64,000 bases of DNA from an uncultured Bacteroidales bacterium (GCA_947593515.1 CANQDQ010000003.1:22497-86496); one strand, 5' to 3'; shown: positions 4,377-26,760, counted from the stretch's first letter. The notes: generated from the sequence alone by a model not told the origin. Numbers and translations: made by a program.

Positions 4377-4407
4377 ATTGTAATATTTTGTTTTCGTCTT
4401 TTTTTCT

Positions 4408-4415: not shown

Positions 4416-4440
4416 ACGGCTGTGTTATTTATTTCACGGG

Positions 4441-4448: not shown

Positions 4449-4465
4449 GACGAGATAATTCGATT

Positions 4466-6049: not shown

Positions 6050-6057
6050 TATCTTTG
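6050..6057 (+). promoter_or_regulatory. -7 box TAtcTTTG for uvrA
   Basis: Exact TAnnTTTG match 29 nt upstream of the uvrA ATG. Confidence 0.5.
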
Positions 6058-6085
6058 CACTTCTGAATTTTTTGGGAAAACATTC

Positions 6086-8872: not shown

Positions 8873-8887
8873 TTTTTCTTCTTCATA

Positions 8888-8930
8888 AAAGCCGCTGCCG
8901 AAAGCCTTATTCGGCAGCGGCTTCTGTTTG
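8888..8930 (+). terminator. intrinsic terminator after uvrA
   Basis: A 12-bp stem GCCGCTGCCGAA/TTCGGCAGCGGC followed by CTTCTGTTTG. Confidence 0.65.
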
Positions 8931-9036
8931 CGAAAAGCGAAATATACCGGCATTCGTCCCGAAAATTTTTTCAAACAAATTTATCCCGACAAATGTTTTC
9001 AACTACCCGTTACGGTCGAATCAACGAGTAGAGAAT

Positions 9037-9612: not shown

Positions 9613-9614
9613 GG

Positions 9615-9655
9615 ATAAAAAAGGCAGCAACAAAAATGTTGCTGCCGAAATATTT
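9615..9655. terminator. bidirectional intrinsic terminator between convergent genes
   Basis: Stem GGCAGCAAC/GTTGCTGCC with an A run on the left and a T-rich stretch on the right. Confidence 0.7.
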
Positions 9656-9676
9656 TACTTTTTCTTATCGTCAAGG

Positions 9677-11050: not shown

Positions 11051-11062
11051 AACGCAGTTTTT

Positions 11063-12652: not shown

Positions 12653-13449
12653 TCGCTATATACCGGAGTAAAATCGAGAAGATTGCCATTTTCATCAAGA
12701 GCGTCTTCATCGACCTTGCCGGGAGACCACCCGCGCATGATAGCCTCTTGTTCATACATATATTCGTTCACGGACTGCGCCATATAGATCCATTGATTGA
12801 ACGGTATCAAGTAACGTTGATAATAGTTTTCGCGGGGAATATAGTCAAACAGTTTCCACAACAGACGTAACTTGCGCTCGGAAAACACGCCGACATATTC
12901 GGGACGCCACCCTTCGGGCGCCATACTGAAAAAATTGGAATAGGCGATGCGGTAATGCAACATATCGACATAGGGATATTCGCTGTCTCCGGTGGCGCTT
13001 TTCTCCAAAAAAGTTTCGAAATATTCATTCGCCCGCAATTCAAGATTGACAATTTTTATTTCCGAAGAAAGGGCGTCTGTCTTTTTCACGCGCACATGGT
13101 AGATAAACTGCGAAGTGTGCGCCGGCATGAGAGCGGGAGTTATCAGCTCGTAGTCGATGCCCTCCACAGCATTGTCCGACGAAACCCGTATATCGACAGG
13201 ACGGTCGATGTCAGCCTGCCAGCCGACCGACTGCACGACAACGGGAACGTCGATATACTCGACGCTGTCAGGCTGGTAAACGAAAGTCGTCGTAAGGGTA
13301 TCGACAAGGGCGTTACCTGTGGTACGGTTGTTGAAATAAATACCGTCGGGCGCACCGTACGGGTCGGGCGTACTCTCCTTGCAGGAGCACATCGCCCACA
13401 CCGGCAACAGCAGTACAGCGGCTATTTTCATTATTTTTCTCATAGACAT
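12649..13449 (-). CDS. DUF4843-like lipoprotein (SusC/D-associated)
   Basis: 266 aa with lipobox 'WAMCSC'. It has a 4-nt overlap with the downstream gene and lies directly after SusD. Confidence 0.55.
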   Translation of the reverse strand: MSMRKIMKIAAVLLLPVWAMCSCKESTPDPYGAPDGIYFNNRTTGNALVDTLTTTFVYQPDSVEYIDVPVVVQSVGWQADIDRPVDIRVSSDNAVEGIDYELITPALMPAHTSQFIYHVRVKKTDALSSEIKIVNLELRANEYFETFLEKSATGDSEYPYVDMLHYRIAYSNFFSMAPEGWRPEYVGVFSERKLRLLWKLFDYIPRENYYQRYLIPFNQWIYMAQSVNEYMYEQEAIMRGWSPGKVDEDALDENGNLLDFTPVYSE

Positions 13450-13453
13450 TTCG

Positions 13454-14944
13454 TTATTGGCGGTTTTCGGTTTCGGTATCGGGCATGGGTATCACGTAAA
13501 GTTTCTCCGAACGGGAAACCGTTTCGTCGCCCATATCCGAAAACTTTACCGTAATATTTCTATAATTTCTTTTGTAATAATAGAAAATCTGACCTTCGCC
13601 ATAAAGTTCGCGCACGAGTTCATATTCCCATCTTGCCCGGATATATCCCGATTCCCGCAGCGAAGAGACACCCCGATGCTCGCGGAGGAGATTGACCCAT
13701 TTCACACTTTCCGATTTGTCGTTATTCTGCAAATACAAATCGGCAATAATCAAGTACATTTCACCCAATCGTATCATGGGAATCATGGTGTTGCGAAGGA
13801 GGGACACGTCGGGCAGGTCAGCAAACTTGTAGAAAGCATAGGACTCGCCTATCTTCGACCAGTTGGCAATATAGCGGTAGTCGTCGGTAGAGCCGCCATA
13901 CTCGCCACCGAAATAGATGGTTTCGAGGTTGGAAGGCACTATCGTAAAGTAGGGACGCGGCACCAGCGAGGGGTCGAAATTGACTTTGAACAGTTGTCCG
14001 CGATTGACATTCGTCAAAGCAAAGATGCATTCGGTATGGAAAATGCGGTCGGGATTTTCGGGCGAGCCGAGTACCAACGAGCGATCGACGAAAGGAAATT
14101 TCTGCGAAGAAATCACCGTGTCAGCGCAGGCGATGGCGTTCTCGATATATTGCGGGGTATTCTCCGAAGTTTCATCGGAAGCGGCATAATAATAGACGCG
14201 CGCCAAGAGGGCTTGCACGGCATAATAGTTGAGCCGCAGCGCCCGATAGGCGGTGAACACGGAGCCGTCGGCGGGTGCGGGAGCCAGCGGGTCGTCGGTG
14301 AATATCGGGTCGTTTTGCAGACAGCAGGCGGCTTCGTTGAGGTCGTCGAGCAGGCGTTGTATCACTTCGTTGGCGGGCAACAGCTCCTGTACCTGCAAAT
14401 CGGTGGTCGTGCAGTAAGGTATGCTTATTCCTTCGGGGTCGTTTTTATAGACCGGACCGAAAAGGCGGAACATGTCGAAATGCAGCAGCGCCCGCAACGC
14501 CAGCGCTTCGCCCCGTATGAGGTTGTAGTTGTCGCCGGTGAAAACTTCGCGGTGCAGCTCCATGTTTTCGAGCAGCGTATTGCAGTTGCGTATGAGGGCG
14601 TAGGCTTTGTTCCACGTATCATCGAAACGGCGGCGCCAATAGTCGCTCGTGAAATTGCGGTCGCGCAGATTGATGTAATCGCCCCAATACGTGGGGTCAT
14701 CGTCTATCTTGTAATTGTATGCCAGAAGCTCCACCATCTCCACCGTCAGGGTGCGACCGTAGAGGGCATCGTCGTTGAGGTCGATATAGATGCCGTTGAG
14801 CAGGCGTTGGAATCCGCTCTCCGTAGAGAAAAGTTCGCTTTCGGAAATTTTGTCGTAGGGCTGTACGTCGAGCCACTTGCTGCACCCCGTCATCGTCATG
14901 GCAAGGAGGCATATTGCTGCGTATGTTATATATCTTTTCATCAT
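13454..14944 (-). CDS. susD: RagB/SusD family nutrient-binding lipoprotein
   Basis: 496 aa. The N-terminus 'LAMTMTGCSKWLDVQPYDKISESELFSTESGFQRLLNGIY' is typical of SusD. It lies immediately downstream of SusC. Confidence 0.9.
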   Translation of the reverse strand: MMKRYITYAAICLLAMTMTGCSKWLDVQPYDKISESELFSTESGFQRLLNGIYIDLNDDALYGRTLTVEMVELLAYNYKIDDDPTYWGDYINLRDRNFTSDYWRRRFDDTWNKAYALIRNCNTLLENMELHREVFTGDNYNLIRGEALALRALLHFDMFRLFGPVYKNDPEGISIPYCTTTDLQVQELLPANEVIQRLLDDLNEAACCLQNDPIFTDDPLAPAPADGSVFTAYRALRLNYYAVQALLARVYYYAASDETSENTPQYIENAIACADTVISSQKFPFVDRSLVLGSPENPDRIFHTECIFALTNVNRGQLFKVNFDPSLVPRPYFTIVPSNLETIYFGGEYGGSTDDYRYIANWSKIGESYAFYKFADLPDVSLLRNTMIPMIRLGEMYLIIADLYLQNNDKSESVKWVNLLREHRGVSSLRESGYIRARWEYELVRELYGEGQIFYYYKRNYRNITVKFSDMGDETVSRSEKLYVIPMPDTETENRQ

Positions 14945-14955
14945 ACCTTCTTTTT

Positions 14956-17900
14956 TTAGAATGTTGCCGACAGCGAGAACGAAACCGTGCGGGCAAAGGG
15001 GTAATCGATACCGCGCTCGGCTTTTACAGTCGAAATATAGAATATATCGTTCATGTTGGCTTGTAAAGTGAGGGACGAAAGTTTCGCCTTGCCGATAAGC
15101 GACTTCGGAAATTCATAACCGATCGTGAACGATTCGCCGCTGAGCGTGTTTTCGTCCATGACGAAACGCGAGGACTTTTCGGTGCGCTGCACCAAAGAGA
15201 TGCCTTTGAAACGGGCGTCTTGCCCCGGCTCCGACCAACGGTCGTAAAGGGCGCGCCGGTCTTGGTTGTAGGCGATGCTCGTAATGTCGATGTTCTCCAC
15301 TTTGTCGTAAAGGGCGTAGTTGAAGGTCTGCCCGCCCAAGCGATAACGCAGATAGGCTCCCAACGAAAATCCTTTCCAATAGAACGTCGTACCGATGACG
15401 CCCTCGACTTTGGGTCGGGTGTCGCCCACGACCACTTCGTCGCTGACATCGTAGGTGAACGAATAGGTGCCGTCTTTGCGTATGAACAACTCCTGTCCCG
15501 TAGCGGGGTCGATGCCGGCGGAACGCACCGCCCATATCGCCGTAGGACTTCCGCCGTCGTAGTAACGGGTGGTCGCCGTAGCAGAAGCCTGCCCTTCTTT
15601 GTTCAACTCGCTCAACGAGTTGCCTATATTGGCATACCATGCTTTGTCTGCCGCAGCGCTCAAACTGATTGTCCAGTTGATGCCCTTACGGAGGTTGTAA
15701 ACGGGCGATACGCGCACAGTCGTTTCCAAACCGTTGGTATGCTGCTCGCCCGCATTCATGGCAACGCTTTTCACACCGACAGAACCCGGCACGGTAAGTA
15801 CCGCCAAGAGCGGATTGGTGATTTTGCGGAAGAGGTCGAAATTGAAACTGAACCGGTTGTCGAACATCGCAGCATCAAGACCGACGGTGTAAATATAGGT
15901 TTCCTGCCACTTCAAGTCGGGGTTTCCCAACGAGGAGATAAGCACGCCCGCCCCGAAGACATTGGTCATCATGCTGTTGAACATATAGGTGGTAAACGCC
16001 TGATATGCCGAAAAATTCTGGTTGCCCGGATTGCCCACCGACGCTCTCGGTTTGAGCAAAGAGATGACCGACTGCGAGCGCATGAATTTTTCATTGTGCA
16101 TATTCCAGCCTACGCCCACCGACCACGTGTCGCGGAAACGGTTGTTCGTCCCGAACATCGACGCGCCGTCTTTGCGGTAATTGACGTCGATGAGATAACG
16201 GTTGTCGTAGGCATAGCCGCCATTAATATAGAAACTGGCGGCACGGGTGGTGCTTTCGGAATAAGCGGGCTTTCCGCCGTTGGCATAACGGTTGGCGAAA
16301 GAGGGTGCGGCAAACTGGTCTTCGGTGAATCCGACTGCCGTATAGCCGTTGGAAACGGCTTTGGAATTTTCAAAGTTGAAGCCGCCAACGAGATTCAACA
16401 GATGTTTTTCTCCGAAAAGCTGTCCGTAGGTAATCGCGATGTCTCCTTCATATCCCAATTCGTCGGAGTCGGAATGCCGATACGACCCTTTCTCTGTTTC
16501 GCTCGCGCTGTCGAAATCGGTGTGCAGGGGCGAGAGGCGGGCATCGGTTTTCATATTGTCTTTCGTCAGACCGAATTTCGCCCGCACCCGCAAATGGTCG
16601 GTGGCAAAATATTCGGCAATGAAGTTGTTGGTGAAATTGAACTCCTTGCCTTTGTCGTAATTGTTGAGGTGGGCATTCCACAAAGGATTGACCACCGGCG
16701 AATCGTCGGCGCCCTCTTCGGGATAATAGAGGTATTTGTCGATTCCGCCGTCGGCATTGTATTTCCGGTAATAGGGGTCTGCCATGGCGTATTCCGAGAA
16801 CGGCACGACGGGGTCTTCGGTACCTACATAATTCAAGGTGAGTTTGTTACTGAACTGAAATTTTCCGGTGCGGTATATCAAATCGATGTTCCCGCTCAAC
16901 GTGCGGCGGTCGGAGCCTTTCATGACGCCCCGAATGTTGCCGTAGCTAAGCCCGATGCCGTAACGCACCCGCTCCTCGCCGCCTTCGGCGTAAATGTTGT
17001 GTTTTTGCGTGAAACCGGTGCGCAGCGGCTCGCTCAACCAATAGGTATCGACGCCGCGCGCCACTTCTTTCAAGCGTTCGTTCCGCAGATTTTCCAGCCG
17101 GAGCTGGTTGAGAGGATTGCCCGAACGGTCGGTATAGAAACCTGCCAAATCCTCAAAACGGATTTTCTCGGAGGCATTCATCAGGTTATAATCGGTGAGA
17201 TCGGCCATCGTTACGCCGAAATCGCCCTTGTAACTCACGCGCAGGCGACCGTTGGCGGGGCGCACGGTCTCGATGACCACGACGCCGTTGGCGGCTTTGG
17301 AGCCATAAATGGCGGTGGAGGCGGCGTCTTTAAGCAACGTAACGGAGGCTACCCTGTTCATGTTCAAGTCGGTAACCACTTCGAGCGTGGTCTCGAATCC
17401 GTCCAAAATAAACAGCGGCTGGTTGGGGTCGGTACCGTACTCCTCTTTCAAGCCCATGATGCTGCTTTTGCCGCGAATCTCGATGTCGGGCATACGGTTG
17501 GGGTCGGAACCGAACTGCACGTTATCGACGATTTTGAAAGCCGGGTCGAGCGTGCGCAAACTTTGCAACACGTTGGACGTGCCGACCTGTTTGAGTTCAT
17601 CTCCGGTGAACGTCGTGGTCGAGCCGGTAAAACTCTCCTTGCTGCGGGTATATATACCGGTTACGACGACCTCTTTCATCGTCTTCGCCGTCGGCACCAT
17701 GACCACGCGGGAGAAATCGCGCAAAGTCGAGGCAGAAAGTTTCATCGTCTTCTTTTCCATACCGATGTAGGTAAAAACGACCGCATATTCACCTTTCGGC
17801 AGGGAGAAAGCGAATTTGCCGTCGACATCGGTGGCGAGTACGATTTTCGTCCCTTCGACAGCAACGGAAACGCCTATCAATGGTTCTTCCGTTTCCTGTT

Positions 17901-18236: not shown

Positions 18237-21092
18237 TTGAAAAACGGAATCATTCATATAATCGCTGCAATACTGCTTCTTGCTTTCGGAAGCGCTACGC
18301 TTTCATCGGCTCCGGCAAATGTCGGGACGGGTGCGATGCGCGCCGAAATGGCGGCATGGCAGGCGTTTCTGCGACAGCATTATGCGTCTGCCGATACCAC
18401 GGCAGCGGGTGCCGATTCCGTCGCCGTCGATACGACGCTTGCCCTCCATACCGCAGTGAGGGATTCGCTTCTGCCGGCGACCGATAGTGTACAAGCCGCA
18501 GAAGCCGTACTGTCAACCGACACCGCAACGGCGGCAGCCGACTCTGCCGCCGCTCCCCGCAAAGAGGCATTCGACGATGTTATCAAATATCATGCGTCGG
18601 ACTCGGCACTGTTCACCAATAACAATAACGGATTTCTCTACGGCGATGGCGTGGTAACGTATCAGGAAATGGAACTTACCGCCGACGAAATGCATATGGA
18701 CATGGACAGCAGCCAGATATTCGCCGTCGGACGCCCCGATTCGGTGGGCGACATCGTGGGAAAACCGGTATTCAAAGACCCGAGCGGCGAATACGAAACT
18801 TCGACGATGAAATATAATTTCAAAAGCCAAAAGGCGTTCATCACCAATGTGGTAACGCAACAGGGCGAAGGCTATCTCACCGGAGGACAGACGAAGAAAA
18901 ATGCCGACGACTCCTATTATCTCAAAAACGGACGCTACACGACGTGCGACGAGCACGACCACCCGCACTTCTATCTGCAACTGACCAAAGCGAAGATGCG
19001 CCCGAACAAAGATGTGGTTACGGGTCCTGCCTACATGGTGCTGGGCGGAGTGCCGCTGCCGCTGGTGATACCTTTCGGATACTTCCCGTTCACCGAAAAA
19101 TACAGTTCGGGTATCATCATGCCGACATTCGGCGACGAAATGGCGCGCGGCTTTTACCTGCGCGACGGCGGTTACTACTTTGCCATCAGCGACTACATAG
19201 ACCTCGCTCTCACGGGCGAAATCTACACGAAAGGGTCGTGGGGCGTGAATGCGCGGTCGTCATACGCCAAACGCTACAAATTTTCGGGAAATTTCTTTCT
19301 CAGCTACCTCGTAACGGTATTGGGCGACAAGGGTATGCCCGACTACTCCAAGCAGACCAACTTCAAACTGACGTGGAGCCACACGCAAGACCGCAAAGCC
19401 AATCCCAATCTGAATTTTTCGGCGAGCGTGAATTTCTCGACCAGCGGTTACAGCCATAACAACCTGACCAACTACGGCAACTCCACCGCCTTCACGCAGA
19501 ACACGACGAGTTCGACCGTGAGCCTGTCGTACACGATTCCGCGCTCGATTTTCAGTTTTGCACTTACTGCCAACGTTACCCAACGCAACTCCGACTCCAC
19601 CCTGAACGTATCGTTCCCCAACCTCACCATCAACATGAGCCGTGTCTATCCGTTCAAACGGAAAAACCGCGCAGGCAAGGAAAAATGGTACGAGAAAATA
19701 AGCCTCAGCTACACGGGCAACCTCAAAAATTCCATACAGACAAAACAGAGCGACTTTCTCAAAGCCAACCTCATACGCGACTGGAGTAACGGTATGCAGC
19801 ACAACATTCCGGTATCGGCTACATTCAGCGTATTCAAATACATCAACATCACACCCTCGTTCAACTTCACCGACCGCATGTACACGCACCGCATCATGCA
19901 GGAGTGGGACCCGCGCAGCGCAGCAGTGGTGCGCGACACCACCTACGGATTTTACAATGTATATAACTACCGTTTCAGCGTGAGTGCGCAGACGAAACTT
20001 TACGGATATTACCGTCCGCTGCCGTTCATCGGGAAAAAAATTCCCATGATACGCCACGTACTCACGCCCTCTATCAGCTTCAACGGGGCGCCCGATTTCG
20101 GGAGCAAGCGTTTCGGATACTGGCAGCGCTATATGCGCATCGCCGACGGCGTGCCCACCGTCGTGTACTATTCGCCGTTCAGCGACGGCGGCTACGGCGT
20201 GCCCGGGCGAGGCAAAACGGGAAGTCTGTCGCTATCGCTCTCCAACAACCTCGAAATGAAAGTGAATACCGACAAAGACTCGACGGGCGTGCGGAAAATC
20301 AGCCTTATCGAAAACCTGTCGTTGAGCATGGGCTACAACTTCGCAGCCGACTCCATGAATTGGAGTAACCTCAACGCCTCGATACTTATCAAACTCACCA
20401 AGCAATTCAACCTGCAACTGAGCGCGGTATTCGACCCCTACACCTACCAACTCAACGCCAACGGCAGCCCCGTGCGGGTGAACGTGCCGCGCTGGAAGGC
20501 AGGCAAAGGATTCGCCCGACTGTCGAGCACGGGTACGTCGTTTTCGTACACATTCAACAACAATACGTTCAAACGCAAGAACAAACAATCATCGAAAACA
20601 CCCGAACCCAAACCCGAAGAAAACATCGACGACGGCGTGCTGTCGAATGCCGAACAGATAGGCGACACAGAAGAAAGTTCGAGCAAAAAAGAGCCCCTGC
20701 AAATGCGCGACGGTTATATGGTTTGGAACATTCCGTGGAGCCTGTCGGTAAACTACTCCATCAGTTACAGCTACGATTACAGCAAATTCGACAAAGAGAA
20801 AATGGAGTACAAGGGACGCTTCACCCAGAACCTCAGTATTTCGGGCAACATACAGCCGACGAAAAACTGGTCGTTCAACTTCTCGGCAAGCTACGATTTC
20901 AATACCCACCGCCTCGCCTACATGAATTGCAACATCTCGCGCGACCTGCACTGCTGGACGATGAGCGCCAGTTTCATACCCGTCGGTCCCTACAAATCGT
21001 ACAATTTCAGTATCCGTGTAAAATCGTCGATGCTCAGCGACCTGAAATACGACAAAAGCGGCAACTCCTACAACCACCTCGAGTGGTACTGA
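18237..21092 (+). CDS. LptD/OstA-like LPS-assembly outer-membrane protein (Bacteroidota type)
   Basis: 951 aa. The start codon in the track is TTG, so the start is uncertain. It has a signal peptide and an OstA-like segment '...MKYNFKSQKAFITNVVTQQGEGYL...GRYTTCDEHDHPHFYLQLTKAKM'. Confidence 0.7.
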   Translation: MKNGIIHIIAAILLLAFGSATLSSAPANVGTGAMRAEMAAWQAFLRQHYASADTTAAGADSVAVDTTLALHTAVRDSLLPATDSVQAAEAVLSTDTATAAADSAAAPRKEAFDDVIKYHASDSALFTNNNNGFLYGDGVVTYQEMELTADEMHMDMDSSQIFAVGRPDSVGDIVGKPVFKDPSGEYETSTMKYNFKSQKAFITNVVTQQGEGYLTGGQTKKNADDSYYLKNGRYTTCDEHDHPHFYLQLTKAKMRPNKDVVTGPAYMVLGGVPLPLVIPFGYFPFTEKYSSGIIMPTFGDEMARGFYLRDGGYYFAISDYIDLALTGEIYTKGSWGVNARSSYAKRYKFSGNFFLSYLVTVLGDKGMPDYSKQTNFKLTWSHTQDRKANPNLNFSASVNFSTSGYSHNNLTNYGNSTAFTQNTTSSTVSLSYTIPRSIFSFALTANVTQRNSDSTLNVSFPNLTINMSRVYPFKRKNRAGKEKWYEKISLSYTGNLKNSIQTKQSDFLKANLIRDWSNGMQHNIPVSATFSVFKYINITPSFNFTDRMYTHRIMQEWDPRSAAVVRDTTYGFYNVYNYRFSVSAQTKLYGYYRPLPFIGKKIPMIRHVLTPSISFNGAPDFGSKRFGYWQRYMRIADGVPTVVYYSPFSDGGYGVPGRGKTGSLSLSLSNNLEMKVNTDKDSTGVRKISLIENLSLSMGYNFAADSMNWSNLNASILIKLTKQFNLQLSAVFDPYTYQLNANGSPVRVNVPRWKAGKGFARLSSTGTSFSYTFNNNTFKRKNKQSSKTPEPKPEENIDDGVLSNAEQIGDTEESSSKKEPLQMRDGYMVWNIPWSLSVNYSISYSYDYSKFDKEKMEYKGRFTQNLSISGNIQPTKNWSFNFSASYDFNTHRLAYMNCNISRDLHCWTMSASFIPVGPYKSYNFSIRVKSSMLSDLKYDKSGNSYNHLEWY

Positions 21093-21154
21093 TACCCCCC
21101 CCTATTCGTTCGGCAGGAAAATCGTTATAATGACTTTTTTTCGCGAAAAATTTT

Positions 21155-21162
21155 TAACTTTG
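21155..21162 (+). promoter_or_regulatory. -7 box TAacTTTG upstream of the helicase-nuclease gene
   Basis: Exact TAnnTTTG match about 104 nt upstream of the ATG at 21266. Confidence 0.35.
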
Positions 21163-21265
21163 CATGAATAAACGCGATACAAAATTTTATAGCTGGCGAA
21201 ATGAAATTCTCCACAACAGAGTATGCCATTGAGTAACACAAAATAGAAGAACTATTTCTTGTTTT

Positions 21266-24200
21266 ATGGGACGGGAACTGAATAAAAGGATTGATATTTG
21301 GAAAAAACTTTTGCTAGACTTTGGCAAAAGGAATCGCCTTATTAATTTTAAGGAGGGGAAACGCTCCAATGTGTGCATCACTGCGCCATCGTATGACAAG
21401 TTGTTTGACCTTATCGCTGTACGCGAGAAGGATATCCGCTTCCCATATGCAAGGAAAACTCGTATAGATGATGAGGGCGAGGAGATGTACGATGAAATAA
21501 TAAAAGGTGATGTTGAAACTTCTAAACCGGTTGGCGAGCTGCAAAAAACATTGAAAGTTCTCCGGTATAGAGCGAACACCTCCATCGAAGAGCAAGGCAT
21601 CAATATTTTGTTTCTCGCATTCGGTTTGTTGAAGTGGTCTGAACGGGAGGATTCCGAACAAACATTGTCTTCACCTATCGTACTCGTTCCTGTAAAACTT
21701 ACTATCGAATCGCTAACATCGCCATATAAATTAGAACCGCACGAGGACGAGATTGTTGTAAACCCAACGCTGCGGCACAAACTGGACAATGATTTTGGAA
21801 TCAAACTGCCGGAGTTTGACGAATCACAAGATGATATTACCGATTATCTCGATAAGACAGAGCAAATAATCAGCAAAAAAGGTTGGAAGATTGAACGTTG
21901 TATTCATCTAACCAATCTTTCATTTCTGAAAATCAATATGTATAAGGATTTGGAGCGCAACGAAGAGAAGTTGAACTCCAATCCTATCATTACTGCGATA
22001 GCAGGTGAACACGAACCGATACAGGGATTCGAGGGACTCGATGGATTTGATCACGACAAGAATGTCAGACCCATCGACACATTTCAAGTTGTGGATGCTG
22101 ATTCAAGCCAGCAAGATGCTATACTACTGTCAAAGCGAGGCGTAAGTTTTGTGTTGCAAGGTCCTCCGGGAACGGGCAAGAGCCAAACCATTACCAACAT
22201 TATCTCAGAAGCTATCGCCGACGGTAAAAAAGTGTTGTTCGTCTCAGAAAAGATGGCTGCCCTGCAAGTCGTATATAACCGGTTGGTCAGTGTGGGGCTT
22301 GGTGATTTTTGCTTTACGCTTCACAGCCACAAAGCAAATAAAAAGGAGATACTACGCGAACTGGCTCATTCCATTTCGATAGATAGGAAAAAAGTTACCG
22401 ATGAGGCTCTGACCCAACTGCATAATCTTGAACGGAAACGGGCAAACCTTAATGAGTATCAACAGGAACTGCACACTCCTTGCTCCGGATTGAACAAGAC
22501 GATATTCGAGATAAACGGACGACTTGCCAAACTATCGGATATTCCAGAAGTAATATTTGGGATTGAAAATATCGATAAGGTTACGACTCAAGAACTTGAC
22601 GACCGCCTTTATCTTCTGCGGGAACTATCGAAGACTATCGGCAAGCGTAATGAGGACTATGCGGATAATGTCTGGCGAAATTCTACTATTAAATTTCTGT
22701 CGAATGAGCTGCGCCACGATATTGATTCCAACATATCGATATTGCTGCCATTGCTGTCAGAGGCAGAACAATGTCTGAAATCCAGTTGCGATATATTGGA
22801 TATTTTTATAGCCCCGACCGTGTATGGCTTGGAATCAATCGTAAAGATAATGGAGTTGGCTAAAGATGCGCCGAATATCCCGACAAACTGGTTGATAAAT
22901 ACAAATATATTGTCCGATATTGAACGAGATTTTAGCGCATGCAGGATTAAACATGAAGAAATCATATCAGACAACAAAGATATTCTGCAAATATTTGACA
23001 AAGAGATATTCACATTAGATTTCTATCCAATTCTGCATCGATACAGAAACAAGTATCAGTCTTGTTTCAGGGTGCTTAGATGGAGATATTGGGCAGATAA
23101 ACGAGCCATTAAACAATACCTATCCAACGACGCACAATTATCTTATGATGATACTTTACGTCTGTTGAATTTGCTGAAAACGGTAAAGGAGAAAACATCC
23201 GAAATAGAGAGTGAGAAAGCTCAATATATATCAAAATACGATACTTATTACAAAGGGGTTGAAACAAATTGGAATGAATTGGAGAATGCGTTGCATTTTG
23301 CAAAAAGATTACATAACGTAAAAGAGTCGTACAAACTCACAGATGCGTTTACACAACAAATTTGTTCTGAACAAATTGTCAAATCGTATTGTCAAGATAA
23401 CGTTGAAAAATATTCATCGATTTTAGAGTCCATCGATAAACCATTGCAATGGTTCTCGTCTTTGTTTGACGGTACTGAATCATTCCGTACATATTCATTT
23501 ACCAAACTTGCGGACAGACTGACGGCTTGCAAAGACAAAAAATATCTTCTCGAAGAGTGGGTGGACTATTGCGCTAACAAGCAGAAATGCGAGAACGTGG
23601 GATTATTGCCATATATCGTCGAATTTGAGACTAAAGCCGTTAATCCTGAGTATCTTGTCGATGCTTATCTGAAACGCTTTTACCGTTTGTGGCTCGATGC
23701 GATGTTGCCGCAGTTTCCTGCTGTGCTGAATTTCAGAGGTAGAATACATGAACAGACCATCAATGAGTTCCGCCAATTGGACAAAGATCAGTTCAAAATT
23801 GCACAAGCACGAGTGCGTGAACGAGTTGTTAGCAGAATTCCAGACTTCAACGCAGTAACTTCGACACGCGACGAAATAGGAATATTGAAACGGGAACTGA
23901 ACAAACAGCGACGCTTAATGCCTCTGCGCAAGTTGTTTATGGCAATTCCCAACCTCATCACATCACTCCGCCCCTGTTTTATGATGTCGCCGCTTTCGGT
24001 GAGTGTCTTCCTTGAAGCGCAGAGTTATGATTTCGATTTGGTAATCTTTGATGAAGCATCACAGGTACATACCGAAGATGCTATCGGAGCAATTATGCGT
24101 GGAAAGCAGGTTATCATTGTTGGTGATACGCAGCAACTGCCGCCCACCAATTTCTTCGCATCTTCGCTCAACGACGAAGATTTTGACAGTGAAGAAGATG

Positions 24201-25909
24201 ATGACTCAAAGAGTAATGATGCCGGAGCATATGATTCCATACTTGAAGAAGCTGTAACGGTATTGCCGGAGCGTAGTCTGCGCTGGCATTACAGAAGTCG
24301 CCATGAACATTTGATAGCATTCTCGAATATCAAGATATATAAGGGTTCTCTTATCACATTCCCTGCTTCGATAGAGAAAGCTCCAGATTATGGTGTGGAA
24401 TATATCTATGTATCTGACGGTGTGTATGACAGAAGCGGCAAACGTAACAATGTAATTGAGGCGCGAAAGGTCGCAGACTTGGTATTTGAGCATTTCCGCA
24501 AATATCCGAACCGATCTTTGGGCGTTGTTACATTCAGCGAGGCACAGCAAAACGCGGTAGATGCAGCCATCAGACAAAAACGCTATCAAAATGCAGCATT
24601 TGAGCGTTACTTTGTTGAAGATAAGGACGAACCATTCTTTATCAAAAATTTGGAGAATGTGCAGGGCGATGAACGCGACACGATTATATTCAGCATCGGA
24701 TATGCCAAAGACGCACACGGAATAATGTATATGAATTTTGGTCCGTTGAGTCGAGACGGAGGATATCGACGATTGAATGTAGCTATTACACGTGCAAAAT
24801 ACAATGTCAAACTTGTTGGTTCTATCGTGCCGACAGATATAGATGTTGACAAGACTTCGTCAGAAGGGGTTAGAATGTTACGTTCATATATCGAGTTTGC
24901 GCAGAATGGTATAACTGCTCTTGAAAAAGAGCTTACTTTCAGTAACGAGATAACTTTTGATTCTCCGTTTGAGGAGTCTGTCTATGATTTCTTGCAGACC
25001 AAAGGATATAATGTCGTTACACAGGTAGGTTGTTCGGGTTTCAGAATTGATATGGCAATCAAACATCCGGTGCAGAGCGGTTGCTTTGTCATTGGTATCG
25101 AGTGCGACGGTGCTACATATCATAGTTCCAGAACTGCGCGAGAGCGAGATCGACTGCGTCAGACTGTTTTGGAAGATATGGGTTGGACTATCTATCGAAT
25201 ATGGTCGACAGACTGGATTAAAGATCAACGAACAGAAGAGCAGAAATTGGTAGCCGCTGTCGAAAGGGCATTGGGGCTTGCTACCGAAATAAATATACCT
25301 GACGAAGATGCGGAAATTGTAGAAACACCATCAGAAGATATTATCATAGAAGAACCGGTTGAAATCCTTGCCGAGACGCAAAATGGATATGGTTTTATTG
25401 AGTATCAACAGGCTAATATCTATGATTACTATTCCAAGTTGAGTGCAGAGGATATTATCAAGAAGGTCATTGAGATAGAGCAACCGATTCATTTTGAGGA
25501 GTTATGCCGCAGAGTTGCGCCGTTATATGGCAACTATAAAGCGACTTCAAAAATTCGCAATGAAGTACAACTGGCATTCAAATATCATCTAACGGATGCG
25601 ATAAAACAAGAGAATGATTTTATTACACTTGCGGACTTTAATAATTTACAAGTCCGTATTCCGAGCAGTACCGACGATTATATTCGCCCCATTGTCAATA
25701 TCAGTGATGACGAACTGGCTTTGGCAATGTCTACCATTGTAGAACATTGTTTTGGAATAGCTCCAGAAGACTTGTTTAGAGAGACTGCCCGTGTGTTTGG
25801 GTTCAAACGCACCGGAGAAAATATTGTATCTTCTCTGCGACGAGTGTACAACGATATGCTAACAAACTGTCAGGTCAGGGAGGTTGACGGGAAAGTAAGT
25901 AAAATGTAG
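21266..25909 (+). CDS. DUF4011-like / SF1 (Upf1-type AAA_11+AAA_12) helicase / Vsr-DUF559-type PD-(D/E)xK nuclease / DUF3320-like fusion protein (Hhe-like)
   Basis: 1547 aa. Walker A 'LQGPPGTGKSQTI' (about 22160-22183). Walker B 'LVIFDEASQ' (about 24041-24064). 'GDTQQLPPT', 'VQGDERD', 'NVAITRAK'. Nuclease block 'GFRIDMAIKHP...IGIECDGATYHSSRTARERDRLRQTVLEDMGWTIYRIWSTDW' (about 25030-25225). Confidence 0.85.
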   Translation: MGRELNKRIDIWKKLLLDFGKRNRLINFKEGKRSNVCITAPSYDKLFDLIAVREKDIRFPYARKTRIDDEGEEMYDEIIKGDVETSKPVGELQKTLKVLRYRANTSIEEQGINILFLAFGLLKWSEREDSEQTLSSPIVLVPVKLTIESLTSPYKLEPHEDEIVVNPTLRHKLDNDFGIKLPEFDESQDDITDYLDKTEQIISKKGWKIERCIHLTNLSFLKINMYKDLERNEEKLNSNPIITAIAGEHEPIQGFEGLDGFDHDKNVRPIDTFQVVDADSSQQDAILLSKRGVSFVLQGPPGTGKSQTITNIISEAIADGKKVLFVSEKMAALQVVYNRLVSVGLGDFCFTLHSHKANKKEILRELAHSISIDRKKVTDEALTQLHNLERKRANLNEYQQELHTPCSGLNKTIFEINGRLAKLSDIPEVIFGIENIDKVTTQELDDRLYLLRELSKTIGKRNEDYADNVWRNSTIKFLSNELRHDIDSNISILLPLLSEAEQCLKSSCDILDIFIAPTVYGLESIVKIMELAKDAPNIPTNWLINTNILSDIERDFSACRIKHEEIISDNKDILQIFDKEIFTLDFYPILHRYRNKYQSCFRVLRWRYWADKRAIKQYLSNDAQLSYDDTLRLLNLLKTVKEKTSEIESEKAQYISKYDTYYKGVETNWNELENALHFAKRLHNVKESYKLTDAFTQQICSEQIVKSYCQDNVEKYSSILESIDKPLQWFSSLFDGTESFRTYSFTKLADRLTACKDKKYLLEEWVDYCANKQKCENVGLLPYIVEFETKAVNPEYLVDAYLKRFYRLWLDAMLPQFPAVLNFRGRIHEQTINEFRQLDKDQFKIAQARVRERVVSRIPDFNAVTSTRDEIGILKRELNKQRRLMPLRKLFMAIPNLITSLRPCFMMSPLSVSVFLEAQSYDFDLVIFDEASQVHTEDAIGAIMRGKQVIIVGDTQQLPPTNFFASSLNDEDFDSEEDDDSKSNDAGAYDSILEEAVTVLPERSLRWHYRSRHEHLIAFSNIKIYKGSLITFPASIEKAPDYGVEYIYVSDGVYDRSGKRNNVIEARKVADLVFEHFRKYPNRSLGVVTFSEAQQNAVDAAIRQKRYQNAAFERYFVEDKDEPFFIKNLENVQGDERDTIIFSIGYAKDAHGIMYMNFGPLSRDGGYRRLNVAITRAKYNVKLVGSIVPTDIDVDKTSSEGVRMLRSYIEFAQNGITALEKELTFSNEITFDSPFEESVYDFLQTKGYNVVTQVGCSGFRIDMAIKHPVQSGCFVIGIECDGATYHSSRTARERDRLRQTVLEDMGWTIYRIWSTDWIKDQRTEEQKLVAAVERALGLATEINIPDEDAEIVETPSEDIIIEEPVEILAETQNGYGFIEYQQANIYDYYSKLSAEDIIKKVIEIEQPIHFEELCRRVAPLYGNYKATSKIRNEVQLAFKYHLTDAIKQENDFITLADFNNLQVRIPSSTDDYIRPIVNISDDELALAMSTIVEHCFGIAPEDLFRETARVFGFKRTGENIVSSLRRVYNDMLTNCQVREVDGKVSKM

Positions 25910-26015
25910 ATGAATTTGATATGTAGCTATGAATCATATATATTTGAATGCTAAAATGAATACATTATGTGCGGCTTAAAAACGTCCTCATCGGCTCAAT
26001 GATTAAACTAATGAA

Positions 26016-26309
26016 ATGAAAGACGACAATAAAATAATCATCTACCAAGACGACAACGAGGTAACGCGAGTGTCTGTTCGTTTCGCCGACGAAGATTTGT
26101 GGCTTACGCAAAATCAATTGGCTGAGATATACGATACGACACAAGAGAATATATCTATGCACATCACAAGCATCTATCGCGACGGTGAATTGGCGCAAGA
26201 TCGAACTTATAAGAAATTCTTATTAGTTCGTACCGAAGGCTCTCGGCAGGTGAAACGCAATATCGACCATTACAACCTCGATATGATTATTGCTTTGGGC
26301 TATCGTGTC
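26016..26309 (+). pseudogene. rhuM: rhuM-family gene, 5' fragment only (about 98 codons)
   Basis: 'IIIYQDDNEVTRVSVRFADEDLWLTQNQLAEIYDTTQENISMHITSIYRDGEL...HYNLDMIIALGYRV' matches the RhuM N-terminus. Similarity stops after GYRV (26309). The rest of the track ORF (to 26495) is antisense to hxlR. Confidence 0.7.
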
Positions 26310-26665
26310 GGGGAGGCGGTGCGGGAATATTTTTTGCTGAAAAGCCGGGTATTCCGATTGCCCCACGCTATCATGGCATCGATAATGGGTATCAATGTAG
26401 CGCCCAACGGGGTAATGGCGTACTCGGAACGGGGCGGCAATTCGGGAAAAATGGTTTTGGACACGAGCCCGTCGTCGACCAATTCTTTGAGTTGAAGGTC
26501 GAGCACGCGGGGCGCAGCTTCGGGAAAGAGTTTGTGCAATTCGCTGGGGCGCAGCGGTTTGTAACGAAGTTCGTCCAAGATGCAGGATTTCCACTTCGAG
26601 CCGATGAGGCTCATGGTCAGGCGCAAGGGACAATCTAAATCGACAGGTATTTTTCGTTCGTACAT
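26300..26665 (-). CDS. HxlR family transcriptional regulator
   Basis: 121 aa from the ATG at 26665 (MYERK...). 'CPLRLTMSLIGSKWKSCILDEL...RPSELHKLFPEAAPRVLDLQLKELVDDGLVSKTIFPELPPRSEYAITPLG'. Confidence 0.85.
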   Translation of the reverse strand: MYERKIPVDLDCPLRLTMSLIGSKWKSCILDELRYKPLRPSELHKLFPEAAPRVLDLQLKELVDDGLVSKTIFPELPPRSEYAITPLGATLIPIIDAMIAWGNRNTRLFSKKYSRTASPTR

Positions 26666-26724
26666 CGTTTCATATATTATTACACGACAAATATAGTAAT
26701 AGTCCGCCATTTCCGGAGTATAGG

Positions 26725-26760
26725 GAAAAATTTTTCGGTACATGAAAAATTTTTCGGTAC
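26725..26760. promoter_or_regulatory. tandem 17-bp repeats GAAAAATTTTTCGGTAC x2 (candidate HxlR operator)
   Basis: Two identical units at 26725-26741 and 26744-26760. Each contains the perfect 12-bp palindrome GAAAAATTTTTC. They lie in the divergent hxlR / NTF2-like intergenic region. Confidence 0.5.

What the first reader, a model, noticed from the sequence alone, without database searches (positions are those of the whole stretch)
21093..26309. AT-rich islet with one giant DUF4011 / SF1-helicase / Vsr-DUF559 nuclease / DUF3320 protein: an Hhe-like single-gene defence candidate
Seen: base composition drops sharply right after the lptD-like stop (21092) and recovers at about 26310. Within that span there is essentially one gene (21266-25909, 1547 aa). 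It has four recognisable blocks. The first is a long N-terminal region of the DUF4011 type. The second is a Upf1-like SF1 helicase core (GPPGTGKS, VIFDEASQ, GDTQQLPPT, VQGDERD, NVAITRAK). The third is a PD-(D/E)xK block of the Vsr/DUF559 type (GFRIDMAI...IECDGATYH...RDRLRQTVLEDMGWTIYRIWSTDW). The fourth is a C-terminal DUF3320-like tail. Established, from memory: this helicase plus Vsr-like endonuclease architecture is what was named Hhe among the single-gene antiphage systems. RhuM-family genes often ride in the same islands. Inference: this is an acquired defence islet in a Bacteroidales genome, where such systems are poorly characterised. Its trigger and the role of the DUF4011 and DUF3320 modules are unknown. 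It is the best candidate in the window for a stand-alone, experimentally untested system.
Basis: partly seen in the sequence, partly recalled or inferred. Interest (0 to 1): 0.72.

Follow-up and report, generated by a model that had tools for sequence, protein, structure and literature searches.

The report
Acquired single-gene helicase-nuclease defence islet
A gut Bacteroidales chromosome carries, in a slot where its closest relative holds a restriction-modification system instead, one imported 1547-residue helicase-nuclease gene; it belongs to an already catalogued candidate anti-phage family (PADLOC PDC-S37, related to ProA and Hhe), so it is a real but not new kind of defence gene.

Summary
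A 4.8-kb segment at 41% GC (the window is 51%) follows lptD and holds one intact 1547-aa ORF plus a truncated rhuM stub. The ORF has a DUF4011 domain, a split Upf1-like SF1B helicase, a Vsr-fold MTES_1575 nuclease and a DUF3320 tail. All catalytic motifs are invariant across 81 homologues.

The nearest genome (95.5-97% DNA identity in both flanks) has a type II methylase, a type IIG-like enzyme and a PDC-S31 gene at the same position. The site is therefore a cargo-swapping defence hotspot.

The "Hhe" label is only partly right:
- Hhe: 904 bits against NCBIfam's cutoff of 2000, and curated Hhe lacks the DUF3320 tail.
- ProA: 1353 bits against a cutoff of 1500, and ProA's ~355-aa N-terminal extension is absent.
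- PADLOC PDC-S37: matches end to end (1498 bits).

It is a new member of a known candidate family with 9,216 clusters at 50% identity. Relatives occur on plasmids and as the sole cargo of a mobilizable element.

New details:
- The tail models as two winged helices.
- The DUF4011 model has no PDB match.
- The helicase carries a length-quantised, hypervariable, recombining helical arm.

Anti-phage function and mechanism remain inferred, not shown.

The parts
18237..21092 (+). lptD-like gene, the conserved left flank of the hotspot
   Evidence: Pfam LptD_2, 1e-169. It is 96% identical in protein to L001, and the region is 95.5% identical in DNA.
21093..21207 (+). Shared 115-bp spacer downstream of lptD. 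It contains a Bacteroidota -7-like box, TAACTTTG, at 21155-21162. Homology with the nearest relative ends at 21207.
   Evidence: The alignment to L001 is near-identical up to 21207 and then diverges. In L001 the first cargo gene's ATG lies in this shared part. Promoter function is inferred.
21208..26021 (+). The swapped cassette: the segment replaced in the nearest relative by a 6.1-kb restriction-modification plus PDC-S31 cargo
   Evidence: blastn of window against L001. Junction alignments. GC is 41.2%, z = -3.2. No flanking direct or inverted repeats, no tRNA.
21266..25909 (+). Giant gene, 1547 aa: a PDC-S37 / ProA-like helicase-nuclease
   Evidence: ORF. PADLOC PDC-S37, 1497.7 bits, aa 4-1544 against profile 5-1544 of 1550. 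NCBIfam ProA 1352.9 (cutoff 1500) and Hhe 903.7 (cutoff 2000).
21266..22015 (+). N-terminal alpha/beta domain containing DUF4011 (aa 1-250). The fold has no solved counterpart.
   Evidence: Pfam DUF4011, aa 16-173, 6e-39. AF2 model: pLDDT 79.7, pTM 0.75. Best Foldseek PDB hit has E = 0.21 and prob < 0.1. No phmmer PDB hit at E <= 1.
22103..22345 (+). Helicase domain 1A, N-terminal part, with Walker A GPPGTGKS (K305)
   Evidence: Pfam AAA_19 and AAA_30. PDB hit to IGHMBP2 over aa 267-340. Walker A is invariant in 81 of 81 sequences.
22346..23965 (+). 540-aa insertion ('arm', aa 361-900) splitting helicase domain 1A. Predicted to be mostly helical. Its length is quantised across the family.
   Evidence: Pro+Gly is 4.6% and hydrophobic residues show helical periodicity. 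No PDB sequence hit. Length classes are about 320, 450, 600, 740, 880 and 1150 aa. Long forms have paired insertions at Q549 and Q671.
22766..23515 (+). Hypervariable, recombining core of the arm (aa 501-750)
   Evidence: Identity to P0002 is 34-54% here and 90-100% everywhere else. There is no nucleotide similarity to L081 over 22771-23419, while the flanks are 94% identical.
23966..24835 (+). Helicase 1A C-terminal part plus domain 2A (motifs II-VI: DEASQ, GDTQQLPP, VQGDERD, NVAITRAK)
   Evidence: Pfam AAA_11 and AAA_12. PDB hits to Sen1, Upf1 and DNA2. Motifs are invariant.
24968..25258 (+). Vsr-fold MTES_1575 nuclease (aa 1235-1331); putative catalytic residues D1262, E1279, D1281, H1286
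   Evidence: Pfam MTES_1575, 3e-38. The AF2 model matches the I-Bth0305I catalytic domain 3r3p with prob 1.0 and target TM 0.76-0.82. The residues are invariant in 81 of 81 sequences. Classified as a Vsr REase fold in PMC3710099.
25292..25384 (+). Acidic disordered linker (aa 1343-1373)
   Evidence: pLDDT below 50. D+E is 33% and K+R is 0% over aa 1341-1376.
25394..25906 (+). Tandem winged-helix tail (aa 1377-1547), including DUF3320. Shared with ProA; no counterpart detected in Hhe.
   Evidence: The AF2 model has pLDDT above 90 and two helix-helix-helix-hairpin units. Foldseek matches SelB WH2-4, cullin WHB, Nse3 and JetB. Pfam DUF3320. BLAST matches ProA but gives no Hhe hit, and Pfam finds no DUF3320 in Hhe. 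PMC3710099 states that DUF3320 overlaps wHTH domains.
25915..25946 (+). Bacteroidota-type promoter motif (TTTG-N20-TATATTTG) between the giant gene and the rhuM remnant
   Evidence: The pattern occurs 10 times in the window against 1.3 expected. Function is inferred.
26016..26309 (+). Truncated rhuM (PDC-S05-type) remnant: the first 98 codons only, fused to the 3' end of hxlR. Homology to the nearest relative resumes at 26022.
   Evidence: Pfam RhuM profile positions 2-37 of 252. PADLOC PDC-S05 N-terminal match. 100% identical in protein in L001. A 25-aa stub follows the homologous gene in L081 and L082.
26300..26743 (-). hxlR-family regulator, the conserved right flank
   Evidence: Pfam HxlR, 5e-22. 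98% identical in L001.

Best explanation
Window 21208-26021 is horizontally acquired cargo in a chromosomal defence hotspot, between lptD and a decayed rhuM/hxlR junction. Its single gene encodes an intact, self-contained helicase-nuclease of the PADLOC PDC-S37 family. This is the same superfamily as the anti-phage proteins ProA and Hhe.

Shown here:
- Acquisition and cargo swapping.
- The domain composition.
- Intact and strongly conserved ATPase and nuclease motifs.
- A tandem winged-helix tail (from the model).
- A hypervariable, length-quantised arm inserted in helicase domain 1A.
- Mobility of close homologues on plasmids and on one mobilizable element.

Inferred mechanism: the protein acts alone and has no modification partner. 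The winged helices and the DUF4011 domain hold nucleic acid. The Upf1-like SF1B motor uses ATP to translocate 5'->3' along a strand exposed in invading or replicating foreign DNA. The Vsr-fold nuclease then nicks or cuts that DNA. This either destroys the invader or, if the host genome is also hit, aborts the infection. The hypervariable arm is the most likely specificity or regulatory element: it either senses a phage-made structure or protein, or it is the surface that phage inhibitors attack.
For: Acquisition and hotspot:
- GC is 41.2% against 51.8% (z = -3.2) and GC3 is 0.42 against 0.70.
- The nearest relative, L001, is 95.5-97% identical in both flanks. Between the same breakpoints it carries a type II MTase, a ResIII/Eco57I type IIG-like enzyme and a PDC-S31 gene.

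Family:
- PDC-S37 matches end to end at 1497.7 bits.
- The protein is collinear with a bona fide ProA, aa 3-1515 against 363-1947.
- The catalytic core is 44-45% identical to both Hhe and ProA.

Integrity:
- Walker A, motifs II, III, V and VI, and D1262, E1279, D1281 and H1286 are invariant in 81 of 81 sequences from two clades.

Folds:
- The helicase matches IGHMBP2, Sen1, Upf1 and DNA2.
- The nuclease matches the Vsr-like homing endonuclease I-Bth0305I. The tail matches tandem winged-helix modules. This agrees with PMC3710099.

Stand-alone and mobile:
- No partner gene is conserved across eight contexts.
- P0046 is the sole cargo of an integrase-relaxase element at three insertion sites. P0120 is on a Rep3/ParA contig. 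562 plasmid records carry homologues.

Arm:
- Quantised lengths.
- Identity falls from 90-100% to 34-54% within aa 501-750, and DNA homology is lost there.

Related system:
- For Hhe, PhageMaP reports phage DNA-metabolism genes as triggers and toxicity on co-expression of a phage gene (10.1101/2024.10.10.617714).
Against: - No experiment exists for this protein or, as far as I could find, for its Bacteroidales clade. PDC systems are candidates only.
- I could not locate the evidence behind NCBIfam's 'ProA' label.
- No empty site was found, and only one close relative is available.
- A DUF4011 gene is a conserved core gene flanking a hotspot in every P. aeruginosa isolate, rather than variable cargo (PMC10250203). 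Family members are therefore not always accessory.
- Upf1-like helicases and RAP-type folds also act on RNA, so the substrate could be RNA or R-loops.
- Translocation polarity, substrate, trigger and the role of the arm are all inferred.
- The arm was not modelled structurally.
Confidence: 0.62

Rival explanations
1. It is a true orthologue of Hhe (Gao et al. 2020) and should simply be annotated as Hhe.
For: It has the same order of DUF4011, split SF1 helicase and MTES_1575 nuclease. The Hhe models give significant hits (631.7 bits in PADLOC, 903.7 bits in NCBIfam). The catalytic core is 44.4% identical to curated Hhe.
Against: The score is below half of NCBIfam's equivalog cutoff of 2000. The PADLOC best hit is PDC-S37, with more than twice the score and full coverage. 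BLAST finds no similarity to Hhe in the arm or the tail. Curated Hhe gave no Pfam DUF3320 hit and ends about 130 aa after the nuclease.
Confidence: 0.08
2. The gene serves mobile elements rather than the host. It would act as an exclusion or competition weapon, or an addiction module, of plasmids and integrative mobilizable elements. Its target would be rival plasmids or incoming conjugative DNA, not phages.
For: Homologues occur in 562 plasmid records, of which 228 are conjugative and 154 mobilizable. P0046 is the only cargo of an integrase-primase-MobC-relaxase element found at three insertion sites. P0120 is on a Rep3/ParA contig. The family is almost absent from phage genomes, with 1 full-length hit in 50,697 records. 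A 5'->3' ssDNA translocase would suit the single strand that enters during conjugation (inference).
Against: In this window the gene is chromosomal, with no integrase, relaxase or replication genes in the cassette. The alternative occupant of the site is a restriction-modification plus PDC-S31 set, which is typical anti-phage cargo. Relatives Hhe and ProA are labelled anti-phage. Anti-plasmid and anti-phage activity are not mutually exclusive.
Confidence: 0.2
3. It is a housekeeping genome-maintenance helicase-nuclease (DNA2- or AddAB-like repair or replication-restart enzyme) that happens to lie in a variable region.
For: The SF1B core resembles DNA2, Sen1 and IGHMBP2. A DUF4011 gene is core in P. 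aeruginosa (PMC10250203). Several homologues sit alone among metabolic genes.
Against: The gene is absent from the closest relative at 95.5% DNA identity and from the next relatives, which have galE-like and rubrerythrin genes after lptD. Its base composition is strongly foreign. Homologues are mobile. It has a hypervariable recombining module, which is atypical for repair enzymes. It matches defence-candidate HMMs.
Confidence: 0.06
4. It is a decaying, non-functional relic, like the adjacent rhuM stub.
For: The neighbouring rhuM is truncated to 98 codons. The gene is the short-arm minority form, 3 of the 120 closest homologues.
Against: The ORF is uninterrupted at 4.6 kb and all catalytic motifs are intact. 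Independent short-form homologues at 63-75% identity are full-length and collinear. An identical protein was recovered from another assembly (P0001).
Confidence: 0.04

Closest known systems
PADLOC phage-defence candidate PDC-S37 (model PDLC05009)
   Same: The match is end to end (aa 4-1544 against profile 5-1544 of 1550; 1497.7 bits). It is a single-gene system. The model length equals the short-arm form found here.
   Different: Nothing structural. PDC-S37 is a bioinformatic candidate with no published test that I could find. The model also captures ProA (1181.7 bits) and the long-arm forms, so it is broader than this clade.
Anti-phage protein ProA (NCBIfam NF058533). Example: Klebsiella variicola plasmid pLY161, WP_302074231.1, 1963 aa
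   Same: DUF4011, split SF1B helicase, MTES_1575 and DUF3320 tail are collinear (aa 3-1515 against 363-1947, 30.8% identity; core 45.5%). The arm is the same short class, about 320 aa. All catalytic residues are shared.
   Different: The window protein lacks ProA's ~355-360-aa N-terminal extension. The ORF cannot extend, because only 173 nt separate it from the lptD stop. It scores 1352.9 against a cutoff of 1500. The host range also differs: Bacteroidales against Enterobacterales and Pseudomonas. I found no paper describing ProA.
Hhe (Gao et al. 2020 single-gene system; NCBIfam NF042953; PADLOC PDLC02194). Example: K. pneumoniae pKP3302, WP_021314612.1, 1911 aa
   Same: A DUF4011 N-terminal domain, a Upf1-like helicase split by a long insertion, and an MTES_1575 Vsr-fold nuclease. 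The core is 44.4% identical. It is a single-gene system.
   Different: Hhe gave no Pfam DUF3320 hit and has no BLAST-detectable counterpart of the tail. It ends about 130 aa after the nuclease. It has an insertion inside DUF4011 (aa 30-308) and a longer arm with no detectable similarity. The window protein scores 903.7 against a cutoff of 2000.
Mokosh (MkoA/MkoC) and eukaryotic Upf1-like SF1B helicases (Upf1, Sen1, IGHMBP2, DNA2)
   Same: The same helicase superfamily and motifs. PADLOC MkoA and MkoC hits are 1e-28 and 1e-25. PDB hits are listed. DNA2 is likewise a helicase-nuclease fusion.
   Different: The similarity is limited to the motor. Mokosh uses a PLD nuclease, and DNA2 a PD-(D/E)xK nuclease N-terminal to the helicase. 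None has DUF4011, the long arm or the tandem winged-helix tail.
Core-gene-flanked defence hotspots (for example cDHS1 of P. aeruginosa, PMC10250203)
   Same: Fixed flanking genes with interchangeable defence cargo and no integrase.
   Different: Here the evidence rests on only two genomes. The right flank is a decayed rhuM stub fused to hxlR. In P. aeruginosa a DUF4011 gene is the flank; here the DUF4011-containing gene is the cargo.

Membership tests
Hhe (NCBIfam NF042953 / PADLOC PDLC02194) | Whole-protein score at or above the curated equivalog cutoff (2000 bits) | tested here: not met
   903.7 bits, matching the profile only in part (aa 632-1350 against profile 980-1694 of 1797).
Hhe (NCBIfam NF042953 / PADLOC PDLC02194) | The Hhe model is the best-scoring defence model | tested here: not met
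   PADLOC Hhe gives 631.7 bits (partial); PDC-S37 gives 1497.7 bits (full length).
Hhe (NCBIfam NF042953 / PADLOC PDLC02194) | Architecture of DUF4011 + split SF1 helicase + MTES_1575 Vsr-type nuclease | tested here: met
   Pfam hits in the window protein and in curated Klebsiella Hhe.
Hhe (NCBIfam NF042953 / PADLOC PDLC02194) | End-to-end collinearity with a curated Hhe protein | tested here: not met
   BLASTP aligns only aa 91-470 and 818-1357. There is no hit for the arm or the tail. Hhe gave no Pfam DUF3320 hit.
Hhe (NCBIfam NF042953 / PADLOC PDLC02194) | Protection against phages when expressed alone | not testable with these tools
   Requires phage challenge experiments.
ProA (NCBIfam NF058533) | Whole-protein score at or above the curated cutoff (1500 bits) | tested here: not met
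   1352.9 bits. A Klebsiella plasmid protein scores 2223.6. All Bacteroidales relatives tested score 1348-1358.
ProA (NCBIfam NF058533) | N-terminal extension of about 355 aa preceding DUF4011 (profile positions 1-355) | tested here: not met
   The match starts at profile position 356. DUF4011 starts at aa 16 here and at aa 375 in ProA. The ORF begins 173 nt after the lptD stop.
ProA (NCBIfam NF058533) | Collinear DUF4011 - SF1B helicase with short arm - MTES_1575 - DUF3320 tail | tested here: met
   A single BLASTP alignment, aa 3-1515 against 363-1947. The tail and distal arm match ProA. The arm is in the ~320-aa class in both.
PADLOC PDC-S37 (candidate single-gene system) | Full-length match to model PDLC05009 | tested here: met
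   E = 0, 1497.7 bits, aa 4-1544 against profile 5-1544 of 1550.
PADLOC PDC-S37 (candidate single-gene system) | Stand-alone gene with no conserved partner | tested here: met
   Neighbours differ in all eight homologue contexts examined. In the window the gene is alone in the cassette.
PADLOC PDC-S37 (candidate single-gene system) | Demonstrated defence phenotype | not testable with these tools
   I found no publication. PDC entries are candidates.
Upf1-like SF1B helicases | Conserved motifs I, Ia, II, III, V and VI, and sequence similarity to solved members | tested here: met
   The motifs are invariant in 81 of 81 sequences. PDB hits are IGHMBP2 3.6e-11, Sen1 4.6e-10 and Upf1 3e-6. The 5'->3' polarity is inferred from the family, not tested.
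Vsr-fold / MTES_1575 restriction-endonuclease-like nucleases | The fold, and conserved acidic and His residues on the core strands | tested here: met
   Pfam 3e-38. The model matches 3r3p with prob 1.0 and target TM 0.76-0.82. D1262, E1279, D1281 and H1286 are invariant. Catalysis itself was not tested.
Defence island / hotspot cargo | Variable occupancy between close relatives, with other defence genes at the same site | tested here: met
   L001 carries an MTase, a type IIG-like enzyme and a PDC-S31 gene between identical breakpoints. Only one close relative was available.
Defence island / hotspot cargo | An empty site in a related genome | tested here: inconclusive
   No same-species contig exists in the metagenome collection. 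Genus-level relatives have different genes after lptD, so synteny is broken.

The most novel reading that the evidence does not exclude
The ~540-aa insertion in helicase domain 1A may be an antiparallel helical arm whose length changes in paired ~140-aa steps. Its ~250-aa core is exchanged by recombination between otherwise 94%-identical genes. On this reading the arm is a modular, fast-evolving specificity determinant. It would act as a 'variable receptor' built into a single-protein immune nuclease, setting which phage structure or protein triggers it or which inhibitor it escapes. DUF4011 would be a new nucleic-acid-handling fold. The arm would then explain how the whole Hhe/ProA/PDC-S37 superfamily tells foreign from self without a methylase.
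Probability: 0.25. Interest if true: 0.72.

Novelty: new member of a known kind. Interest (0 to 1): 0.45.

Why it matters
The gene itself would be called automatically by PADLOC, so the locus is not a discovery of a new system.

It is a clean natural example of a Bacteroidales chromosomal hotspot where a single-gene helicase-nuclease and a restriction-modification/PDC-S31 set replace one another between about 95%-identical genomes.

The family is very large: 9,216 clusters at 50% identity, spread across bacteria, archaea and plasmids. I found no published mechanism for it.

Three observations made here give concrete handles for experiments on Hhe/ProA-type immunity:
- The DUF3320 tail models as a tandem winged helix and separates ProA/PDC-S37 from Hhe.
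- The DUF4011 domain has no solved structural counterpart.
- The helicase carries a hypervariable arm with quantised length.

The short-arm Bacteroidales form (1547 aa) is the most compact full-length form seen among the homologues examined, so it may be a convenient one for structural work.

Tried and rejected
1. Literature on 'ProA', 'PDC-S37', 'DUF4011', 'DUF3320', 'MTES_1575' and 'Hhe'. I found no paper on ProA or PDC-S37. For Hhe I found only survey mentions and the PhageMaP preprint.
2. Empty-site search. The exact spacer scan of metagenome contigs found nothing. The LptD-based scan found no contig above 82% identity. GTDB genomes gave only one close relative. Genus-level relatives are not syntenic after lptD.
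3. Integrase-type boundaries. There are no meaningful direct or inverted repeats at the cassette ends, no tRNA in the window and no Rfam family in 17-30 kb.
4. Structural identity of DUF4011. Foldseek against the PDB and BFVD, and phmmer against the PDB, gave nothing convincing. The single BFVD hit, an 'AAA domain protein', has TM below 0.25.
5. Sequence search of the arm against the PDB gave nothing.
6. The sigma-70 promoter and terminator scan was no better than shuffles, as expected for Bacteroidota.
7. The idea that the 1547-aa length reflects a private deletion is rejected. Independent short forms exist at 63-75% identity, and the PDC-S37 model itself is 1550 positions long.
8. The idea that the window gene is simply P0002 with a deletion is rejected. 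The central segment is replaced by unrelated sequence, not merely shortened.

Full report
**1.

The ORF at 21266..25909 (+) encodes 1547 aa. It follows an LptD_2-family gene ending at 21092. It precedes an HxlR-family gene on the opposite strand whose stop codon is at 26300-26302.

GC content falls from about 0.53 to 0.34-0.46 across the span. The 4.8-kb core is 41.2% GC, against 51.8 +/- 3.3% for the other 4.8-kb windows (z = -3.2). It is the lowest such stretch in the 64 kb. The gene's GC3 is 0.42, against 0.69-0.70 for the upstream genes.

Pfam confirms all four blocks:
- DUF4011, aa 16-173, 6e-39.
- AAA_19 and AAA_30 around Walker A, AAA_11 at aa 918-961, and AAA_12 at aa 1001-1186.
- MTES_1575, aa 1235-1331, 3e-38.
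- DUF3320, aa 1396-1432, 27.5 bits against a gathering score of 25.

The 'RhuM' ORF at 26016 matches only profile positions 2-37 of 252. It then runs antisense into hxlR, so it is a 98-codon remnant.

**2. The site is a cargo-swapping hotspot**

I scanned one genome per GTDB species with LptD. This found a rabbit-gut Bacteroidales MAG (L001, CANQAM010000027.1) with LptD 96% and the upstream TonB-dependent receptor 99% identical.

At the DNA level:
- Window 9684-21207 matches L001 1452-12986 at 95.5% identity.
- Window 26022-27213 matches L001 19117-20307 at 97.0% identity.
- Between these points the window has the giant gene, 4.8 kb.
- L001 instead has 6.1 kb encoding a type II methyltransferase, a 1316-aa ResIII+Eco57I type IIG-like enzyme and a DUF2971/PDC-S31 protein.

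Both junctions are sharp. The left one lies in a shared spacer 115 bp after lptD, exactly at the ATG of L001's first cargo gene. The right one lies at codon 2-3 of the rhuM stub, which is 100% identical in protein in the two genomes.

There are no flanking repeats, no integrase and no tRNA. Exchange by homologous recombination in the flanks is the simplest reading (inference).

The next relatives are Candidatus Caccoplasma-like genomes with LptD 73-83% identical. There, lptD is followed by a GalE-like epimerase and a rubrerythrin at host-like GC. The lineage of the window and L001 therefore has a synteny break at this point.

I could not find an empty site. The species is absent from the metagenome collection.

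**3. What the gene is**

| Family model | Score (bits) | Curated cutoff | Coverage |
|---|---|---|---|
| PADLOC PDC-S37 | 1497.7 | none given | aa 4-1544 against profile 5-1544 of 1550 |
| PADLOC Hhe | 631.7 | none given | partial |
| NCBIfam ProA (NF058533) | 1352.9 | 1500 | starts at profile position 356 |
| NCBIfam Hhe (NF042953) | 903.7 | 2000 | partial |

I retrieved reference proteins from plasmids for direct comparison.

*ProA.* A Klebsiella variicola pLY161 protein (1963 aa) is a true ProA by NCBIfam's criterion, with 2223.6 bits over profile positions 2-1903. It has a ~360-aa N-terminal extension without Pfam domains ahead of DUF4011.

*Hhe.* A K. pneumoniae pKP3302 protein annotated 'hhe' (1911 aa) has DUF4011, the split helicase and MTES_1575. 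It gave no Pfam DUF3320 hit.

The window protein is collinear with ProA over aa 3-1515, at 30.8% identity. It aligns to Hhe only over aa 91-470 and 818-1357.

In the catalytic core it is equidistant from the two, 45.5% and 44.4%. Its tail and distal arm match ProA only.

PDC-S37 also captures ProA at 1181.7 bits.

The gene is therefore a member of the PDC-S37 family. It sits on a branch that shares ProA's body but lacks its N-terminal extension, and it is not Hhe by any curated criterion. All Bacteroidales relatives tested behave the same way, scoring 1348-1358 on ProA.

**4. Integrity and folds**

In an alignment of 81 sequences from the Bacteroidales and ProA clades, the following are invariant:
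- Walker A (GPPGTGKS).
- Motif II (DEASQ).
- GD..Q.PP, HYRSR, VQGDERD and the motif VI arginine.
- Nuclease residues D1262, E1279, D1281, H1286 and R1311.

By sequence, the motor resembles the SF1B helicases IGHMBP2, Sen1, Upf1 and DNA2.

The AlphaFold2 model of aa 1190-1547 has pLDDT 80.9. It shows a compact alpha/beta nuclease, a disordered acidic linker and two helix-helix-helix-hairpin units with pLDDT above 90.

Foldseek matches the nuclease to the Vsr-like catalytic domain of homing endonuclease I-Bth0305I (prob 1.0, target TM 0.76-0.82) and to RAP-domain proteins. It matches the tail to tandem winged-helix modules: SelB WH2-4, cullin WHB, Nse3 and JetB. These E-values are weak (all above 1e-3). 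This agrees with Anantharaman et al. 2013, who described MTES_1575 as a Vsr-fold REase and DUF3320 as overlapping two wHTH domains (PMC3710099).

The model of aa 1-290 (pLDDT 79.7, pTM 0.75) has no meaningful match:
- Foldseek against the PDB: best E = 0.21, prob < 0.1.
- Foldseek against BFVD: nothing convincing.
- phmmer against PDB sequences: no hit.

**5. The arm**

Helicase domain 1A is split by about 540 aa (aa 361-900). This region has the lowest Pro+Gly content in the protein (4.6%) and helical periodicity. It has no PDB sequence relative.

Of the 120 closest homologues, 3 are about 1547 aa, 99 are about 1830 aa and 18 are about 2125 aa.

Across 389 homologues, the distance between anchors at Q480 and Q800 falls into classes:
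- Main classes at about 320, 600, 880 and 1150 aa.
- Minor classes at about 450 and 740 aa.

The long forms carry two insertions, 133 aa at Q549 and 147 aa at Q671. These flank a retained core: Q539-676 matches P0002 674-809 at 48% identity. Symmetric paired lengthening suggests an antiparallel helical arm. This is inference and was not modelled.

The same region is hypervariable. Against P0002, every 50-aa bin is 90-100% identical except aa 501-750, which is 34-54%. At the DNA level the two genes are 94% identical on both sides, but have no detectable similarity over 22771-23419. The gene is a recombinant mosaic, and no sampled homologue exceeds about 60% identity in this segment.

**6. Distribution and mobility**

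The family has 9,216 clusters at 50% identity with E <= 1e-30. Full-length relatives at 30-40% identity occur in 562 plasmid records, including Klebsiella, Ralstonia, Acinetobacter, rhizobia and haloarchaea. Only one full-length hit occurs among 50,697 phage records.

Close homologues occur in several settings:
- As lone genes among housekeeping genes.
- Next to AlbA_2/HATPase_c_4 genes.
- On a Rep3/ParA contig.
- For P0046, as the only cargo of an integrase-DUF5906-Toprim-MobC-relaxase element inserted at three different chromosomal sites.

No partner gene is conserved, which supports a single-gene system.

**7. Mechanism (inferred)**

The protein has no methyltransferase partner. It combines a 5'->3' SF1B-type motor, a Vsr-fold nuclease and DNA-binding winged helices.

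I propose that it loads on nucleic-acid structures exposed by invading or replicating foreign DNA, translocates with ATP, and nicks or cleaves. The hypervariable arm would act as the specificity, regulatory or inhibitor-contact surface.

For the related Hhe, PhageMaP reports three things (10.1101/2024.10.10.617714):
- Deleting T7 class II DNA-metabolism genes relieves defence.
- A Bas63 gene is toxic only in hhe cells.
- NAD+-reconstitution genes weakly counter the system.

This fits sensing of phage DNA metabolism and possibly an abortive outcome. None of this has been shown for the present protein.

Rivals that remain open:
- An anti-plasmid or MGE-competition role (about 0.2).
- True Hhe orthology (about 0.08).
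- Housekeeping repair (about 0.06). A DUF4011 gene is core in P. aeruginosa (PMC10250203).
- A dead relic (about 0.04).

**8. Verdict**

Its family label should be corrected to PDC-S37/ProA-like, and its novelty toned down to a new member of a known candidate kind.

Its value lies in three things: the clean hotspot comparison, the domain-level clarifications, and the quantised, recombining arm, which is a testable lead for how this large and mechanistically unexplained family achieves specificity.

Noticed in passing
window 22346-23965 (aa 361-900); homologues P0002, P0029 and P0241-P0390: The insertion in helicase domain 1A comes in quantised lengths across the family: about 320, 450, 600, 740, 880 and 1150 aa between fixed anchors. 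Paired ~140-aa insertions lie on either side of a retained core. This suggests an antiparallel helical arm that is lengthened on both strands at once.
   Followed up: partly
window 22771-23419, against L081 5390-6878: The window gene and its 90%-identical relative P0002 are 94% identical in DNA on both sides but share no nucleotide similarity in this central segment. Protein identity falls from 90-100% to 34-54% over aa 501-750. The gene is a recombinant mosaic with an exchanged module.
   Followed up: partly
window 26016-26309; L001 19114-19404; L081 9534-9605; L082 5697-5768: rhuM (PDC-S05-type) 5' stubs of different lengths recur immediately downstream of defence cargo. A 98-codon stub lies in the window and, 100% identical, in L001 beside different cargo. 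A 25-codon stub follows the P0002 gene in an unrelated context. rhuM may act as a recombination anchor or a frequent breakpoint.
   Followed up: partly
L093, L094 and L095, positions 3748-15520: A ~12-kb integrative mobilizable element (tyrosine integrase, DUF5906, Toprim primase, MobC/NikA, relaxase) carries a 1839-aa homologue (P0046, 67% identical) as its only cargo. It is inserted at three different chromosomal sites in different metagenomes.
   Followed up: no
L001 12980-18968: The alternative cargo in the nearest relative is compositionally composite. The methylase and the ResIII/Eco57I gene are 46-58% GC, while the DUF2971/PDC-S31 gene is about 33% GC. This implies at least two separate acquisitions at the same slot.
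   Followed up: no
L085 4915-6000 (Klebsiella ProA, aa 1-360): The ~360-aa N-terminal extension that defines ProA relative to the window protein has no Pfam domain. Its nature was not examined.
   Followed up: no
window 3500-5500: A second low-GC patch (40-43%) contains a 286-aa gene with a Peptidase_S24 (LexA/UmuD/repressor-type) domain at 4322-5182. It lies next to a 676-aa ORF (1924-3954, minus strand) with no Pfam hit. This may be another acquired segment.
   Followed up: no
window, whole: The Bacteroidota promoter pattern TTTG-N17-23-TAnnTTTG occurs 10 times against 1.3 expected, mostly just upstream of ORF starts (for example 4387, 28235, 31651, 25915). It is a useful marker of the phylum and of likely transcription starts.
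   Followed up: no
L086 5980-18405 (Aristaeella lactis linear plasmid): The best plasmid homologue (2151 aa, 39.8% identical) overlaps by 8 nt a downstream Ser/Thr kinase gene. This is followed by an FHA-domain gene, a 4Fe-4S protein and an AAA ATPase, which may form a multi-gene variant of the system.
   Followed up: no
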